Positions 1-41,223 of a stretch of DNA of 41,223 bases are shown here, one piece after another (the stretch's first letter is position 1; the number at the start of each line of letters is the position of its first letter). A program made the translations under genes and the position numbers. A model generated the notes under the pieces. That model made no database searches and was not told the DNA's origin. It saw only the letters and a list, made by a program, of their open reading frames with translations. The DNA comes from a virus, in UHGV virus genome UHGV-0388930, one strand, 5' to 3'.

Positions 1-21
1 AAACTTCCTGTAATCTTTATT
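1..21. repeat. Left copy of a 21-bp perfect inverted terminal repeat (aaacttcctgtaatctttatt); partner at 41203-41223
   Basis: Reverse complement of 41203-41223 equals 1-21 exactly; match breaks at position 22. Confidence 0.9.
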
Positions 22-100
22 ATCGAAGCAATAAGAAAATAGTTACCCCAAACCCCATAGGGTTTAGAGCATTATATCAGAAAAGGAGTGTGAAAACAAC

Positions 101-445
101 ATGAAAGCATTAGTAATCTATGATTCCACAGGCCGTATATGGTCCATCATCTATGGAGAGGAGACAGTGCCACAGGGGCTGCAGTGCATGTGGGTGGATA
201 TTCCAGACGGAGCCACCCTGGAGCGCATTGACGTGACGGATGCCGCCAAACCACAACCGGTGTACAGCTATCTACCGGAGTCCGATATCGGGCGCCTGCA
301 GAAGCAGGTGACCCAACTGACAGAAGAACTGAACGCCGCACAGCTGGCGCTCACGGAGCAGTATAAGGCCAACCTCGCACTGCAGGAGGAAGTGACCAAT
401 ACCCAACTGGCACTTGCGGAAATCTACGAAGGAATGGGGGTGTGA
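101..445 (+). CDS. Hypothetical phage protein with C-terminal coiled coil (heptad LxxLxxE repeats); sits just before the lysis cassette
   Basis: 114-aa ORF with AGGAG 8 nt upstream; codon usage like neighbours. Confidence 0.5.
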   Translation: MKALVIYDSTGRIWSIIYGEETVPQGLQCMWVDIPDGATLERIDVTDAAKPQPVYSYLPESDIGRLQKQVTQLTEELNAAQLALTEQYKANLALQEEVTNTQLALAEIYEGMGV

Positions 446-448
446 AAG

Positions 449-550
449 ATGGCTAAGGTATATGCGGACTTAATCCGGAAGGGATTAAGGACAATCGAAC
501 AGGTTCCGGAAAGAATCAGGGCGGAGGTCGAAGCGGTTCTGACTGCTTAA
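449..550 (+). CDS. 33-aa small conserved phage protein of the kind found between tail-fiber and holin genes (XkdX-like, tentative)
   Basis: ATG 4 nt after the upstream stop; sequence MAKVYADLIRKGLRTIEQVPERIRAEVEAVLTA; family assignment from memory only. Confidence 0.35.
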   Translation: MAKVYADLIRKGLRTIEQVPERIRAEVEAVLTA

Positions 551-37855: not shown

Positions 37856-40116
37856 TGCAGGCAGCCAGTAATGAATATAAGGACATGATGCGCAGGAAGT
37901 GGCGGAATCCTCTTTCCCATCTGCGCATATCGATTGGCCTGATTAACCAGCAGGCCCAGGCATCGGCCTATGTCCCAGAGCCTGATGGATACACATATTA
38001 TTCCGACCTGGTGAAGCCAATGGATAACTACAGGGTACAGGAGTTATACGCAACCTGTGACCAGGACTATGCCACGGTGGATGGCAGCATGTATTTCCTT
38101 CCCAGGGATGCTGCTGACGTTGTGCTTAACCAGGGGATTGTGACAGACAGCCTGCTGGGCATCATTGAGATACATTTCCCAGTCCGATATGACATCAAGG
38201 GGCTGACCATTGAGTTCGGGAAGGCATACCCGGTGGATTTCTCCATCGTATCTGACAGCCGGACATTAGAAGTGTCCGGAAACAGCAGCGGTCATTATGT
38301 GACAGAGGAAATCTTTGAGGGAGTAACCTTCCTGCGGTTCGTGCCGGGTACCATGGTCAACGGACAGAGCCGGTTCCGCATCAACCAGATCACCATGGGT
38401 ATTGGTATTTATTTTGACAGCAAGAAAATCCTGTCTGCGACCAAAAAGGAGCATATCAGCCCGATATCTGAGGAACTGCCCACCATTGATTTTAATGTGA
38501 CGGTGGACAATAAGGACAGGGCCTATGATGTGGAGAATGAGGAGAGCACCGTAAACTTCCTGGAGATTGGTCAGAAAATCGAGGTACTTTATGGCCAGGC
38601 ACTGGACAACGGGTCTGTTGAGTGGATACCCGGGACCACGCTGGAACTGAGGTCATGGTCTGCGGATGACACTGAGATGGATTTCCAGGCATCCGATTGT
38701 TTTGACGGGATGGACGGGACCTACTATGGTGGACAGTACCATCCGGATGGCATGAGCCTGTATGACATGGCCGTGGATGTCCTGACGGACGCCCAGGTGG
38801 ATTACCGGGAATACTGGATAGACCCATACCTTAAGGATGTGATGGTGACCAACCCGATGCCGGCCGTGGCGCACAAGGAGGCCCTGCAGCTGATAGCCAA
38901 TGCAGGCCGGTGCATATTATATCAGGACAGGGACGGGAAGATATTCCTGAAGTCCAGTTTCGTGCCGGACATGACATCGGCATCCGATAATGAGGCTTAT
39001 TTTTCCCACGCATCAGCAATCCTGGATCATACCGTCAAGGATGTGTACGCCTTGTCAGGACGGGATCATTCCAGAACGGATGGAGCGGTATATTTCGTGC
39101 CAAGACAGACGGAAGGGGCTGTCTATCTGAATACGGGATACATATCAGAAGCAGTGGCCGGCACGGATGGGCTGTTCACGGATAACCCTACGGTGGGCCT
39201 GACCATGGAGGCTGCGTATAAATGTTTCGGCCTGACGCTGGAGTTTGGACGGAATTGGCCGGATATGATGGTGTTCCATGCCTACTACAATGGTATGCTG
39301 CAGGAGAATTACGTGGTTTCAGGACTCACCCAGACCCATGTGGTCAGCCATGAGTTCCCTGAATTTGACTTCATGGAACTGGAATTTGTCCAAGGCTGTC
39401 CAAACAACCGGGTTACCCTGGACAACATAACCTTCGGGGACAGCACGGATTACGTCCTGGAATATGGTGTGGAGCTGACCAAGACACCAAAGGGCACGCA
39501 GCTGGCCAGGGTCAGGGAACTGCAGGTAATACGGACCCTGTATGGCCTGAGTGCCGAGGAGCCAAAAGAACTGGCAAGGGAGACTATATCGGTGACGGCA
39601 CAGGACAACCAGTATACGTTTTACCTGACCAATCCCTCCTATGGCTTTTCTGTCGCCATCACTGAGCAATCGGAGGGGCAGACAGCAACAATCCTAAGCA
39701 GCAGTGCCTATTACGTCACGGTGGGCCTTACAGGTACCGTGGGGGCTACCGAGGTGGCGGTCATGGGTAAGGAATACATCACTACACGGACTAAGGTCAG
39801 CCGGCAGCTCAACCCGACAGGCAGCCTGGAGACGTGGGAAAACCCATTGGTATCCGGCACGCTCCATGCAGCCAATCTTGCCGACTGGATAGGGGACTAC
39901 CTCAAGTCAGACCGGGAATACGACCTGTCTTACCGTGGGGAACCTAGGATGGATGCGAATGACATTGCCTTCCTGGAAAATAAATATGTACCCGACCTCT
40001 TAATCAGGGTAACGGACCATACCCTAAAATTTAATGGCGGACTTAGCGGTACCATCAAGGCAAGGAGGGACATGAGTTATGTGGCAACAGCCAAAAACAG
40101 ACTGGCAGGCCAGTGA
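37855..40116 (+). CDS. Large tail/baseplate structural protein (Tal-like)
   Basis: 754 aa after the tape measure and distal tail gene; ATG overlaps upstream TAA. Confidence 0.5.
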   Translation: MQAASNEYKDMMRRKWRNPLSHLRISIGLINQQAQASAYVPEPDGYTYYSDLVKPMDNYRVQELYATCDQDYATVDGSMYFLPRDAADVVLNQGIVTDSLLGIIEIHFPVRYDIKGLTIEFGKAYPVDFSIVSDSRTLEVSGNSSGHYVTEEIFEGVTFLRFVPGTMVNGQSRFRINQITMGIGIYFDSKKILSATKKEHISPISEELPTIDFNVTVDNKDRAYDVENEESTVNFLEIGQKIEVLYGQALDNGSVEWIPGTTLELRSWSADDTEMDFQASDCFDGMDGTYYGGQYHPDGMSLYDMAVDVLTDAQVDYREYWIDPYLKDVMVTNPMPAVAHKEALQLIANAGRCILYQDRDGKIFLKSSFVPDMTSASDNEAYFSHASAILDHTVKDVYALSGRDHSRTDGAVYFVPRQTEGAVYLNTGYISEAVAGTDGLFTDNPTVGLTMEAAYKCFGLTLEFGRNWPDMMVFHAYYNGMLQENYVVSGLTQTHVVSHEFPEFDFMELEFVQGCPNNRVTLDNITFGDSTDYVLEYGVELTKTPKGTQLARVRELQVIRTLYGLSAEEPKELARETISVTAQDNQYTFYLTNPSYGFSVAITEQSEGQTATILSSSAYYVTVGLTGTVGATEVAVMGKEYITTRTKVSRQLNPTGSLETWENPLVSGTLHAANLADWIGDYLKSDREYDLSYRGEPRMDANDIAFLENKYVPDLLIRVTDHTLKFNGGLSGTIKARRDMSYVATAKNRLAGQ

Positions 40117-40480
40117 TTATTTCAATATCGGTGATTACAACCGCATTAAGGGCAACATCAATGAGATACGGGCCCAGGCCCTTACCCTCTGGCCGGATTT
40201 TGACTTTGAGGACATGGGGGAGGATAAGACATATCAGGATTACGGCTTCTATGCAGATGAAATTAACCGCTTTGAGGCCAATATAGACCATGTCTGTGCA
40301 GGGACATATCCTTTTGCGGTAGGGGAAAGCCGGGAGTACAGGGACAATACCCCATTCATTGATTGGCAGGAACTGAACCGGATTGAATCTGCCTGCCTGA
40401 AGATATATAGGAACATATTGGGGCGGGCGGATGGGATGAAGCGGTTGTCTTTTACATTAAACGGAGGTGCTTTTGAATGA
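40079..40480 (+). CDS. Tail-fiber-associated hypothetical protein
   Basis: 133 aa; overlaps upstream gene end. Confidence 0.4.
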   Translation: MWQQPKTDWQASDYFNIGDYNRIKGNINEIRAQALTLWPDFDFEDMGEDKTYQDYGFYADEINRFEANIDHVCAGTYPFAVGESREYRDNTPFIDWQELNRIESACLKIYRNILGRADGMKRLSFTLNGGAFE

Positions 40481-40932
40481 GTTTGAAAGTGGATTACAAA
40501 GACGATATATATGAAGGCTCCAGGCGATGGAGGATGACCCAGAACGAGGACGGGACCTATAATATATCCGATGCGACATCATATACCCAGAAGGGGGATA
40601 AATTTGGCCAGAATGATATGAACGCCATCACGGGCGAAATCAACCGCATGACCCGCGAGGTCGAACTGACCCTCCCGGCATCCGGCTGGAGTGCATCAGC
40701 CCCATATACCCAGACGGTTGATGTCCCTGGACTGAAGGAGACGGATAAGGTGCAGATGATGAGCGCAATCAAGACGGATACGGCAGTGTCAACGGCGGAT
40801 ATATGGGATAAGATGGGGGCCTTGGTTAAGGCCGGGAAGGCATTGGATGGACAGGCCGTGTTTGCATGTCCAAAAAAGAAGCCGACATCTGATTTTAACA
40901 TCAAGTTGGTGGGGGTGAGTGCAAATGAGTGA
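40477..40932 (+). CDS. Tail-fiber-associated hypothetical protein
   Basis: 151 aa; ATGA-coupled. Confidence 0.4.
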   Translation: MSLKVDYKDDIYEGSRRWRMTQNEDGTYNISDATSYTQKGDKFGQNDMNAITGEINRMTREVELTLPASGWSASAPYTQTVDVPGLKETDKVQMMSAIKTDTAVSTADIWDKMGALVKAGKALDGQAVFACPKKKPTSDFNIKLVGVSANE

Positions 40933-41223
40933 TATCTGGATACCTTATGGTGGAGGTGGGGGCGACCTTGACCAAGTGACGGCAACGGCTGCTGATGTGC
41001 GGAAGGGTAAGACGATTGTTGATAAGGATGGAAACCCCATAGGCGGCACCATGCCGGATATCGCAGGGAGGACCATCACACCGACAACATCACAGCAGAC
41101 ACTGAATGGCGGGGGTTACCTGACGGGAAATGTGGTGGTACCGGGATTCACGATGCCGCCTGCAAACGTGATAAAAAAGGGATATGTCCTCAATGTGTTT
41201 GGAATAAAGATTACAGGAAGTTT
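40925..41223 (+). CDS. Tail fiber-like protein, partial (Gly-rich N-terminus; runs out of the window through the right inverted repeat)
   Basis: ATG overlapping upstream stop; open to the window end. Confidence 0.45.
   Translation, partial: MSDIWIPYGGGGGDLDQVTATAADVRKGKTIVDKDGNPIGGTMPDIAGRTITPTTSQQTLNGGGYLTGNVVVPGFTMPPANVIKKGYVLNVFGIKITGS
41203..41223. repeat. Right copy of the 21-bp inverted terminal repeat (aataaagattacaggaagttt)
   Basis: Exact reverse complement of 1-21. Confidence 0.9.

What the first reader, a model, noticed from the sequence alone, without database searches (positions are those of the whole stretch)
1..41223. Perfect 21-bp inverted repeat exactly at the two window termini; joined ends would form a 42-bp palindrome centred on GTTTAAAC
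Positions 1-21 are the exact reverse complement of 41203-41223, and the match ends at position 22. The gene order (tail fibres at the right end, lysis cassette at the left end, att/int in the interior) is that of a complete circularly permuted temperate phage genome of typical size (41.2 kb). Joining the ends would close the tail-fibre ORF after 4 more codons and create a 42-bp perfect palindrome at its stop. Possible explanations are: (a) a genuine palindromic terminator or recombination site at which an assembler broke a circular genome; (b) a real linear genome with inverted terminal repeats; (c) an assembly artefact.
Basis: seen in the sequence. Interest (0 to 1): 0.55.

Follow-up and report, generated by a model that had tools for sequence, protein, structure and literature searches.

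The report
Assembly break at phage tail-fibre shufflon
The matching inverted 21-base ends are not real genome ends or half of a palindrome: they are two copies of a recombination site that flank a small flip-flop DNA segment (left out by the assembler) with which this gut phage swaps the tip of its tail protein.

Summary
In detail: bases 1-21 are the exact reverse complement of 41203-41223. The ends do not join into a 42-bp palindrome and are not virion termini.

In relatives, the window's right end (constant N-terminal 99 codons of the last tail gene) and its left end (upstream of the lysis genes) are neighbours. They are separated by an invertible region bounded by the same 21-mer in inverted orientation. 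More distant relatives carry two convergent, promoterless C-terminal cassettes (832-870 bp). The closest relatives carry three cassettes and three perfect copies of the 21-mer (1354 bp), which makes it a small shufflon.

Inversion is directly documented:
- The same segment is 100% identical but flipped between otherwise 98-99.5% identical phages.
- Both junction types occur in a single scaffold.
- The three-cassette region is found in different states.

About a dozen contigs from independent samples stop within 10 nt of where the window stops, as expected when cassette states are mixed within a sample.

The window is therefore a near-complete excised temperate siphovirus genome lacking about 1.35 kb. 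No invertase gene is present; the only recombinase is the integrase, so the enzyme is unknown. I class it as a new variant of a known kind (Mu Gin, p15B Min, R64 shufflon, Bifidobacterium Rin).

The parts
41203..41223 (+). Recombination site s1: a 21-bp repeat (AATAAAGATTACAGGAAGTTT) inside the coding sequence, at the junction between the constant and variable parts of the distal tail protein. It encodes (G)IKITGS(F).
   Evidence: The same site lies internally in relatives L002-L007, L094, L156 and L159.
1..21 (-). Recombination site s3: the same 21-mer in inverted orientation. It is the outermost site on the lysis-gene side, and in relatives a silent cassette reads outwards from it.
   Evidence: L003/L004 are colinear with the window across this site. 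L167, L171 and L174 show a B cassette abutting this site and flank.
40925..41223 (+). Constant N-terminal part (99 codons) of the last tail-module gene, the presumed tail fibre or receptor-binding protein. It is truncated by the contig end.
   Evidence: Full-length relatives are 234-244 aa and one carries the nr label 'tail protein'. The C-terminal cassette models as a CBM-like beta-sandwich.
37774..40932 (+). Distal tail genes upstream of the switched gene (780 aa, 133 aa and 151 aa). The 133-aa and 151-aa proteins served as identity anchors to fetch the closest relatives.
101..445 (+). Conserved 114-aa gene immediately outside site s3. It served as the anchor for the left-side relatives.
   Evidence: Four independent contigs start at exactly window base 1.
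583..2329 (+). Lysis cassette: XhlA-like protein, r1t-type holin, and an NlpC/P60 endolysin with choline-binding repeats.
4403..5539 (-). Tyrosine integrase, the only recombinase detected in the window. It is a candidate for the invertase, but an unsupported one.
   Evidence: No serine recombinase was found in any frame.
4241..4260 (.). attP/attB identity block AATATTAACGACACTTTAAT, with dyad ATTAA-N7-TTAAT. It shows that the window is the excised form of the phage.
   Evidence: Prophage junctions in L116-L122 and L165.
13465..15159 (+). Phage homologous-recombination module: ERF annealase, SSB and an ERCC4-type nuclease. This is an alternative, homology-driven route to inversion.
24226..26126 (+). 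Terminase small and large subunits. They indicate packaging from concatemers, which argues against fixed ITR termini.

Best explanation
The window is the backbone of a roughly 42.6-kb temperate siphovirus of an uncultured gut Clostridia host, captured in its excised form. The assembler opened it at the two outermost copies of a 21-bp recombination site.

Between those sites the real genome carries a multiple-inversion region, about 1354 bp in the closest relatives. Its layout is: constant part | s1(+) | C cassette forward, A cassette reverse | s2 | 54-nt spacer | B cassette reverse | s3(-) | lysis side. Each cassette is a promoterless coding block of about 140 codons. Each begins with the 21-mer in the same reading frame as the constant 99-codon N-terminus.

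Conservative inversion between oppositely oriented sites fuses a different C-terminal domain to the constant part. The domain is predicted to be a CBM-like beta-sandwich. The likely effect is a change in receptor specificity, a form of bet-hedging on host range.

Samples contain a mixture of cassette states, so the assembly graph branches exactly at the inner edge of s1 and s3. The backbone contig therefore ends there, which produces an apparent inverted terminal repeat.

Shown: the architecture, the reading frames, inversion in nature, and recurrent contig breaks at the site. Inferred: the receptor-binding role, site-specific (rather than homology-driven) chemistry, and an enzyme supplied in trans by the host or a co-resident element.
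For: (1) Colinearity. In L003/L004, window 40570-41223 is followed by an 832-bp segment and then by window 1-826. All six IMG/VR relatives carry the inverted site pair flanking 832-870 bp, with two convergent cassettes in frame with the site.

(2) Inversion observed.
- L094 versus L007: the flanks are 99.5% and 97.9% identical in the same orientation, while the 912-bp site-to-site piece is 100% identical but reversed. The two phages encode proteins of 234 and 244 aa with identical N-termini.
- Scaffold 3300029398_000202 (L175 + L006) carries const|site|C together with const|site|B and downstream|site|C junctions, whereas the 100%-identical L005 has only one state.
- An A-type cassette occurs both fused to the constant part (P0127-P0143) and in the silent slot (P0125, P0126, P0129).

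(3) Closest relatives, which have identical 151-aa and 114-aa flanking proteins.
- L159, L156, L167 and L174 show three cassettes and three perfect 21-mers.
- The site-B-spacer-site unit is forward next to the constant part in L159 and reversed next to the lysis side in L167.
- L174 is the segment itself, assembled as a separate 1398-bp contig bounded by the sites.

(4) Recurrent breaks. 8 of 11 right-side contigs end within -10 to +9 nt of site base 21. Four left-side contigs start at exactly window base 1. They come from different samples and assemblers.

(5) Crossover position. Polymorphic site bases 19 and 21 travel with the cassette, so the crossover lies within the invariant bases 1-18.

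(6) Fold. The cassette models at pLDDT 85-92 as a beta-sandwich, and the best Foldseek hits are CBM6/CBM35-type modules.
Against: - No invertase gene was found in the window or in any fetched relative. The only recombinase is a generic tyrosine integrase whose att core is unlike the 21-mer. The catalytic step is therefore unassigned.
- The window's own missing segment was never seen. Its size and cassette set are inferred from relatives with identical flanking proteins.
- L159 does not fit a single three-cassette state and has to be read as a chimeric graph path, or else as a four-cassette variant.
- The 'tail fibre / receptor-binding' role rests on gene position, one database label and weak fold matches (E about 1e-3). 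There is no Pfam or PHROG functional hit.
- No raw reads were available, so within-sample mixture for the window itself is inferred from where the contig ends.
Confidence: 0.9

Rival explanations
1. The ends join directly in a circular genome. This would create a 42-bp perfect palindrome (a terminator or recombination hotspot) that closes the tail-fibre ORF after 4 codons.
For: The formal reading frame closes at TAA after 4 codons. Palindromes can break assemblies.
Against: The palindrome pattern is absent from IMG/VR and from every fetched locus. All spanning contigs insert 832-1354 bp of cassette DNA between the two sites. A 103-aa product would lack the C-terminal domain present in all full-length relatives.
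Confidence: 0.02
2. The phage has a genuinely linear genome with 21-bp inverted terminal repeats, of the protein-primed or hairpin-telomere type. This was option (b).
For: The terminal IR is exact, and ITR-based completeness rules would call this contig complete.
Against: Terminase small and large subunits are present. Replication genes are ERF, SSB, an ERCC4 nuclease and a DUF927 primase-helicase, and no protein-primed polymerase or protelomerase domain was hit. The right end cuts through an ORF. In relatives the two ends are contiguous through the segment, and the phage integrates by Int/attP.
Confidence: 0.01
3. The break is caused only by strain mixture, or by the repeat collapsing in a small-k assembly graph, with no active inversion. 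On this view the cassettes are fixed alternative alleles of co-occurring strains.
For: Different phage lineages do carry different cassette pairs: A|B, C|B and C|A'. The Logan k=31 contig ends at +8 nt can be explained by the 33-bp identity shared by the A and B cassette starts.
Against: Flipped yet 100% identical segments occur between near-identical phages. Reciprocal junctions occur within one scaffold. The B unit is found at both ends of the region in phages with identical flanks. The silent cassettes lack promoters and start codons, but all are kept in frame with the site. A 21-bp repeat is shorter than the k of SPAdes or MEGAHIT final graphs, so ends at offset 0 require two different continuations in the sample.
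Confidence: 0.05
4. Inversion is real but homology-driven rather than site-specific. It would be carried out by the phage's own ERF/SSB/ERCC4 recombination module or by host RecA, acting on the 18-33 bp identities.
For: The ERF, SSB and ERCC4 genes are present. No invertase gene was found. The crossover always falls within the perfectly identical block. The divergent relative L008 keeps the twin-cassette layout with a different, degenerate repeat.
Against: Identities of 18-21 bp are at or below the usual lower limit for efficient homologous exchange (general knowledge). Directly repeated sites (s1 and s2 in the B-expressing states) would be prone to deletion, yet the three-cassette region persists in several samples. 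The site is asymmetric, with a conserved inner 18-21 bp and unrelated outer flanks. This resembles the sfx sites of Rci, where asymmetry enforces inversion only (PMC11852207).
Confidence: 0.15
5. The phage integrase (4403-5539) doubles as the shufflon invertase.
For: It is the only recombinase in the genome. Rci and Rin are tyrosine recombinases of similar size (PMC11852207, PMC6109161). A 78%-identical integrase is present in the two-cassette relative of L003 (L123).
Against: The att core AATATTAACGACACTTTAAT shares only an A/T-rich heptamer with the 21-mer, 14/21 at best, which equals background matches elsewhere in the window. The 21-mer lacks the dyad expected for a core-type site. No invertase-family NCBIfam hit was obtained. 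No integrase was seen in the last 5 kb of the L005-type contig, which is not conclusive.
Confidence: 0.12

Closest known systems
Phage Mu G segment/Gin, P1 C segment/Cin, e14 P segment/Pin (simple tail-fibre inversion switches)
   Same: Inverted repeats lie inside the tail-fibre gene at the constant/variable junction. Two convergent alternative C-terminal coding blocks are present, and inversion swaps which one is fused to the constant N-terminus. Host-range switching is the accepted function. The two-cassette relatives (L002-L007) have exactly this topology.
   Different: No serine invertase gene lies next to the segment or anywhere in the phage. The site does not form a 26-bp two-half-site Din site: one half matches gix 10/12, but there is no partner half (table in PMC3241671). 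The cassettes are about 140 codons with no accompanying chaperone or assembly gene. The host is a Gram-positive Clostridia bacterium and the virus is a siphovirus.
p15B Min multiple-inversion system and the R64 shufflon (Rci/sfx)
   Same: There are more than two sites in both orientations and several cassettes that can be shuffled into one expression slot. The sites are asymmetric, with a conserved 18-21 bp block and a variable other arm. In sfx, 7+12 bp are conserved and 12 bp are variable (PMC11852207). Shufflons are also known to break assemblies (PMC5430464 abstract).
   Different: Those systems encode their own recombinase adjacent to the shufflon (Min is a serine recombinase, Rci a tyrosine recombinase). 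Here no dedicated recombinase gene is detectable. There are only three cassettes and three sites, the site sequence is unrelated, and the target is a phage distal tail protein rather than the PilV adhesin.
Bifidobacterium prophage Rin shufflon and the recombinase-less ~500-bp invertible locus of 689b-1/Bb423phi2 (Mavrich et al. 2018, PMC6109161)
   Same: These are gut Gram-positive temperate siphoviruses in which receptor-binding protein C-termini are swapped by inversion at short repeats within the gene. The second Bifidobacterium locus likewise has no flanking recombinase, and a trans-acting invertase was proposed.
   Different: The host phylum differs (Actinobacteria versus Clostridia). The crossover sequences are unrelated (11-bp rix TTCCCTAACCC and 8-bp CAGGGTTA versus the 21-mer here). 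Rin loci carry rin next to the cassettes. The proteins share no detectable homology.
Contigs called 'complete, ITR' by terminal-repeat completeness rules
   Same: The contig has an exact inverted terminal repeat of at least 20 bp and a plausible genome size.
   Different: The repeat arises from an internal invertible region dropped by the assembler. The genome is not linear with ITRs and lacks about 1.35 kb.

Membership tests
Linear phage genome with inverted terminal repeats (protein-primed or telomere type) | Protein-primed DNA polymerase with terminal protein, or a protelomerase | tested here: not met
   Pfam scan of the non-structural genes found ERF, SSB, ERCC4, a DnaG-type zinc finger, DUF927 primase-helicase and terminases only.
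Linear phage genome with inverted terminal repeats (protein-primed or telomere type) | The repeats are the physical ends of the molecule | tested here: not met
   In relatives both flanks are contiguous through an internal segment. The right end also truncates an ORF. Virion ends themselves cannot be tested here.
Din-family serine invertase switch (Gin/Cin/Pin/Hin/Min) | Small serine recombinase gene adjacent to the invertible segment | tested here: not met
   No PF00239 hit in any selected or antisense ORF. A tblastn search with a Gin-like sequence written from memory found nothing better than E=4 in the window and 60 related loci.
Din-family serine invertase switch (Gin/Cin/Pin/Hin/Min) | 26-bp site made of two inverted 12-bp half-sites around a 2-bp core | tested here: inconclusive
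   One half, TTCCTGTAATCT, matches the gix/bix half-site 10/12 (background frequency 6.6e-4 per 12-mer, about 0.013 for the site, post hoc). The partner half-sites score below 8/12 (PMC3241671 Table 3). hixR shows that one half can be degenerate.
Din-family serine invertase switch (Gin/Cin/Pin/Hin/Min) | Inverted repeats within the tail-fibre gene, with alternative C-terminal coding segments | tested here: met
Shufflon / multiple-inversion system | Three or more crossover sites in both orientations separating several cassettes | tested here: met
   L159, L167 and L174 carry three perfect 21-mers and cassettes A, B and C. This was seen in closest relatives, not in the window itself.
Shufflon / multiple-inversion system | Different arrangements of the same cassettes found in nature | tested here: met
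   State const|C..A|B (L167/L174) versus const|B|C..A (L156/L159); const|C in L160. Two-cassette flips: L007/L094 and L005/L006+L175.
Shufflon / multiple-inversion system | Dedicated recombinase (Rci/Rin-like tyrosine or Min-like serine) encoded next to the cassettes | tested here: not met
   The neighbouring genes are tail and lysis genes only. The integrase lies 4.4 kb away and gives only generic Xer-like hits below cut-off.
Shufflon / multiple-inversion system | Asymmetric site: one conserved arm plus core, with a variable other arm | tested here: met
   Bases 1-18 are invariant within each genome. The outer flanks (const, spacer, downstream) are unrelated.
Phage receptor-binding / tail-fibre protein | Virion distal-tail location and a receptor-binding domain | tested here: inconclusive
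   It is the last gene of the tail module, before the lysis genes. One relative carries the nr label 'tail protein'. The AF2 model of the cassette is a beta-sandwich with CBM6/35-like Foldseek hits at E about 1e-3. There is no Pfam or PHROG functional hit.

The most novel reading that the evidence does not exclude
This is a receptor-binding-protein shufflon carried by a phage that encodes no dedicated invertase. There are three readings. (1) The phage's single tyrosine integrase has a second, inversion-only activity at asymmetric 21-bp sites unrelated to its att core. (2) One of the phage's unannotated proteins is a new kind of recombinase. (3) The phage deliberately relies on a host 'master' invertase, which would couple phage host-range switching to the host's own phase-variation state.
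Probability: 0.3. Interest if true: 0.7.

Novelty: new variant of a known kind. Interest (0 to 1): 0.5.

Why it matters
Biologically, this extends programmed tail-fibre switching to temperate siphoviruses of uncultured gut Clostridia. That mechanism is classically known from Mu/P1-type coliphages and, more recently, from Bifidobacterium prophages. Here the design is very compact (140-codon CBM-like cassettes, no chaperone genes) and, unusually, no invertase gene is visible. This raises the question of who catalyses the reaction. It also suggests that gut phage host range can be re-set during lysogeny.

Practically, it gives a clean example of a systematic pitfall. Invertible regions make short-read assemblers emit a backbone contig with an exact inverted terminal repeat. 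Terminal-repeat rules would score such a contig as a complete linear genome, although it is circular or integrative and is missing its host-range determinant. Searching for contigs with short ITRs that cut an ORF could be turned into a cheap detector of active invertible segments in metagenomes.

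Tried and rejected
- The 21-mer searched in IMG/VR gave only one hit, L001, which opened the case.
- A degenerate 18-mer scan of the metagenome collection returned about 100 chance hits in environmental contigs and only 5 true relatives.
- A word-indexed protein search with the 99-aa constant part found only 3 proteins.
- The GTDB genome scan found a single distant homologue, in Enterocloster aldenensis, without cassettes.
- No cultured phage is similar at the DNA level. TerL is at most 63% identical to phages of Solobacterium, Streptococcus and Clostridium.
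- No tRNA genes were found.
- I looked for a sequence resembling the 21-mer near int/attP. The best match was 14/21, no better than elsewhere in the window. After mapping the att core precisely, no convincing likeness remained.
- I looked for a serine invertase in all frames of the window and about 60 related loci, and found none.
- Antisense ORFs of 170 aa or more have no Pfam domains.
- I tried to recover the lysogeny end of the L005-type phage to compare integrases. Its last 5 kb hold only an HTH protein and unknowns.
- My first idea of a long fold-back duplication in contig 3300029398_000202 was wrong. It is a scaffold with a 10-nt gap whose two pieces carry opposite-state junctions.
- A four-cassette model suggested by L159 was set aside after L174 showed the segment bounded by sites with three cassettes. 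It is not strictly excluded.
- Host identification by the LacI flank gave only 'MAG Clostridiales bacterium' at 77%.

Full report
**1. Observation**

Bases 1-21 (AAACTTCCTGTAATCTTTATT) are the exact reverse complement of 41203-41223, and identity stops at the 22nd base. No other copy with up to 3 mismatches exists in the window, and none is expected by chance. The right end lies inside an ORF that starts at 40925 and runs off the contig after 99 codons plus 2 nt.

**2. What the window is**

- Left end: an XhlA-like gene, an r1t-type holin and an NlpC/P60 endolysin with choline-binding repeats.
- Lysogeny region: a tyrosine integrase at 4403-5539(-), followed by ImmA/XRE and Rha genes.
- Replication and recombination: ERF, SSB, an ERCC4 nuclease and a DUF927 primase-helicase.
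- Packaging and structure: TerS/TerL, portal, scaffold, major head, connectors, major tail, tape measure and distal tail genes.

Prophage junctions in IMG/VR proviruses (L116-L122) and in an ENA contig (L165, where the phage abuts host LacI and nucleoside-hydrolase genes) define a 20-bp attP/attB identity block at window 4241-4260. The window therefore spans attP and is the excised or replicating form of a temperate siphovirus. The host flank matches only an uncultured 'Clostridiales bacterium' MAG, at 77%. No close cultured phage exists.

**3. The two ends are neighbours, but not adjacent**

The 21-mer occurs internally in an IMG/VR contig, L001, once perfectly and once with 2 mismatches in inverted orientation 832 bp away. 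The window's right end aligns up to one copy and its left end aligns from the other.

Six IMG/VR relatives all show this pair of sites flanking 832-870 bp. In L003/L004 the order is window 40570-41223, then an 832-bp segment, then window 1-826. The segment holds two convergent coding blocks of about 140 codons. Each starts with the 21-mer in the same frame as the constant N-terminus (…GIKITGS|F/W-EG-W/Y-V…). One is fused to the constant part. The other is silent and lacks an N-terminus of its own. Three cassette families recur in different pairings: A|B, C|B and C|A'.

The proposed 42-bp palindrome is absent from IMG/VR and from all loci.

**4. Inversion is seen directly**

(a) L094 (ERZ1036412) and L007 (IMG 3300029499) have flanks that are 99.5% and 97.9% identical in the same orientation. 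The 912-bp site-to-site piece is 100% identical but reversed. The encoded proteins share the N-terminal 99 aa and differ in the C-terminus, at 234 versus 244 aa.

(b) Scaffold 3300029398_000202 consists of L175 (1-8361), a 10-nt gap, and L006/L154 (from 8372). It carries the downstream|site|C and const|site|B junctions together with const|site|C. The otherwise 100%-identical L005 shows only const|C…B|downstream. Both orientations therefore coexist in one sample.

(c) An A-type cassette at 92-93% identity is found both fused to the constant part (P0127-P0143, 236 aa) and as the silent block next to the lysis side (P0125, P0126, P0129). P0002 is a constant-B fusion.

In (a) and (b) the polymorphic site bases 19 and 21 move with the cassette. 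This places the crossover within the invariant bases 1-18, AATAAAGATTAC[A/G]GGAAG.

**5. The closest relatives carry a three-cassette shufflon**

I fetched contigs that encode proteins identical to the window's 151-aa, 133-aa and 114-aa flank genes. They show three perfect copies of the window's 21-mer.

- L159 and L156: const|s(+)|B forward|54-nt spacer|s(+)|C forward, A reverse|s(-).
- L167: C forward, A reverse|s(-)|spacer|B reverse|s(-)|window left flank.
- L174 is the segment itself, assembled as a separate 1398-bp contig bounded by the sites. It comes from the same assembly as a const-side contig ending inside the site (L157) and a lysis-side contig (L171).

The site-B-spacer-site unit is thus forward next to the constant part in some samples and reversed next to the lysis side in others (97.5% identity). 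L160 shows const|C. A three-site model gives four reachable states that express C, A or B, with 1354 bp between the outer sites. The window plus this segment would be about 42.6 kb. L159 mixes junctions of two states, so it is either a chimeric graph path from a mixed sample or a four-cassette variant. This remains unresolved.

**6. Why the contig ends there**

Of 11 contigs that reach the right-hand site, 8 end within -10 to +9 nt of site base 21, two of them exactly at it. Of 7 contigs on the left, 4 start at exactly window base 1. They come from different samples and assemblers: SPAdes, MEGAHIT and Logan.

The following is inference. A 21-bp repeat is shorter than the usual final k, so a unitig that ends exactly at the inner edge of the site needs two different continuations in the reads. 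That means mixed cassette states in the sample. The +8 and +9 ends in k=31 Logan contigs follow from shared k-mers between site contexts. The window, cut at offset 0 on both sides, is the backbone left when the shufflon is unresolved. The 'ITR' is thus a by-product of real inversion.

**7. What is switched**

The gene is the last of the tail module. One relative is labelled 'tail protein' in nr. An AlphaFold2 model of P0130 gives a confident (pLDDT 85-92) beta-sandwich for the cassette and a low-confidence N-terminal part. The best Foldseek PDB hits are carbohydrate-binding modules (CBM35, CBM6, CBM4 and a mannanase CBM) at E about 1e-3. There are no Pfam or PHROG functional hits. A receptor-binding role is likely but inferred.

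**8. Who catalyses it**

- No serine recombinase was found in selected ORFs, in antisense ORFs, or in any frame of the window and about 60 related loci.
- The only recombinase is the integrase. It scores as a generic tyrosine recombinase, and its att core does not resemble the 21-mer beyond an A/T-rich heptamer.
- The site is asymmetric, with a conserved inner block and unrelated outer flanks. This is like the sfx sites of Rci, where asymmetry is thought to restrict the reaction to inversion (PMC11852207).
- The site contains TTCCTGTAATCT, a 10/12 match to the gix/bix half-site (post hoc P about 0.01), but has no partner half-site (PMC3241671).
- The phage has an ERF/SSB/ERCC4 module, so homology-driven inversion is a rival.
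- Mavrich et al. described a comparable recombinase-less invertible locus in Bifidobacterium prophages and proposed a trans-acting invertase (PMC6109161).

My ranking is as follows.

| Candidate | Probability |
|---|---|
| Trans-acting site-specific recombinase from the host or a co-resident element | about 0.5 |
| Homology-driven | about 0.15 |
| Integrase moonlighting | about 0.12 |
| Unrecognised phage recombinase | about 0.1 |

**9. Comparison and verdict**

The system works like the Mu G/Gin and P1 C/Cin switches (two-cassette relatives) and like the Min, Rci and Rin shufflons (three-cassette relatives). It fails the membership feature 'adjacent dedicated recombinase' for all of them, and its site sequence is unrelated. 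It is best filed as a new variant of programmed tail-fibre inversion, in phages of gut Clostridia.

The palindrome, terminator and true-ITR readings are rejected. 'Assembler broke a circular genome at a recombination site' is right in spirit.

The main open question is the recombinase. The main practical lesson is that short ITRs on viral contigs can mark dropped invertible segments.

Noticed in passing
window 4241-4260; L165 4255 onward; L116-L122 near 9299: The attP/attB identity block AATATTAACGACACTTTAAT (dyad ATTAA-N7-TTAAT) lies 143 bp beyond the integrase stop. The same phage is seen integrated next to host LacI-family and IU_nuc_hydro genes in ERZ26182357.
   Followed up: yes
L008 6228-6284 and 6889-6945: A more distant relative (54% identity in the constant part) keeps the twin convergent-cassette layout. 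Its inverted repeat is a degenerate 57-nt sequence (70% complementary) placed about 8 codons further upstream, with a different sequence. The architecture is older than the 21-mer.
   Followed up: partly
window 5-16 and 41208-41219: The site contains TTCCTGTAATCT, a 10/12 match to the left half-site of gix/bix (TTCCTGTAAACC) of Din-family serine invertases. The variable site base 13 falls at a non-conserved Din position. No second half-site is present.
   Followed up: partly
window 13465-15159: The phage encodes a complete-looking recombination module: ERF annealase, SSB and an ERCC4-type nuclease. This could in principle act on short inverted homologies.
   Followed up: no
L159 1388-1900; L174 445-921; P0124-P0126, P0129: Gene callers annotate the silent cassettes as independent ORFs of 150-170 aa, starting at fortuitous TTG/ATG codons in the spacer or flank. 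Database 'hypothetical proteins' of this kind are really promoterless cassette copies.
   Followed up: partly
P0001 (ENA, 95 aa): This protein has constant-part residues 1-56 joined out of frame to a B-type cassette. It looks like a deletion derivative or a chimeric assembly across the region.
   Followed up: no
L173 (ERZ27236829 k141_1001758) 684-2308: An identical 133-aa distal tail gene is followed by a different downstream arrangement (40 aa, then a protein of 493+ aa) instead of the 151-aa gene and the switched gene. This is modular replacement of the whole distal tail tip.
   Followed up: no
window about 2312-3990 versus L115: A near-identical relative (99% identical integrase) lacks this block. 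The block holds a 203-aa protein matching a PHROG 'acetyltransferase' family and small HTH ORFs, so it is likely an accessory (moron) region next to attP. The whole 2.3-9 kb lysogeny region is also markedly lower in GC (39-42%) than the rest (50-55%).
   Followed up: no
L114 (Enterocloster aldenensis) 10001-10336: The only isolate-genome homologue of the constant part is a stand-alone 112-aa ORF (P0003, 47% identity) with no cassette or site pair. The N-terminal module also exists as a separate small protein.
   Followed up: partly
L155, L160, L161 (Logan contigs): Logan k=31 contigs end 8-9 nt past the site rather than at it. This fits k-mer logic: the constant and spacer flanks share the base before the site, and A and B share 12 nt after it, giving a 33-bp identity.
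   Followed up: partly
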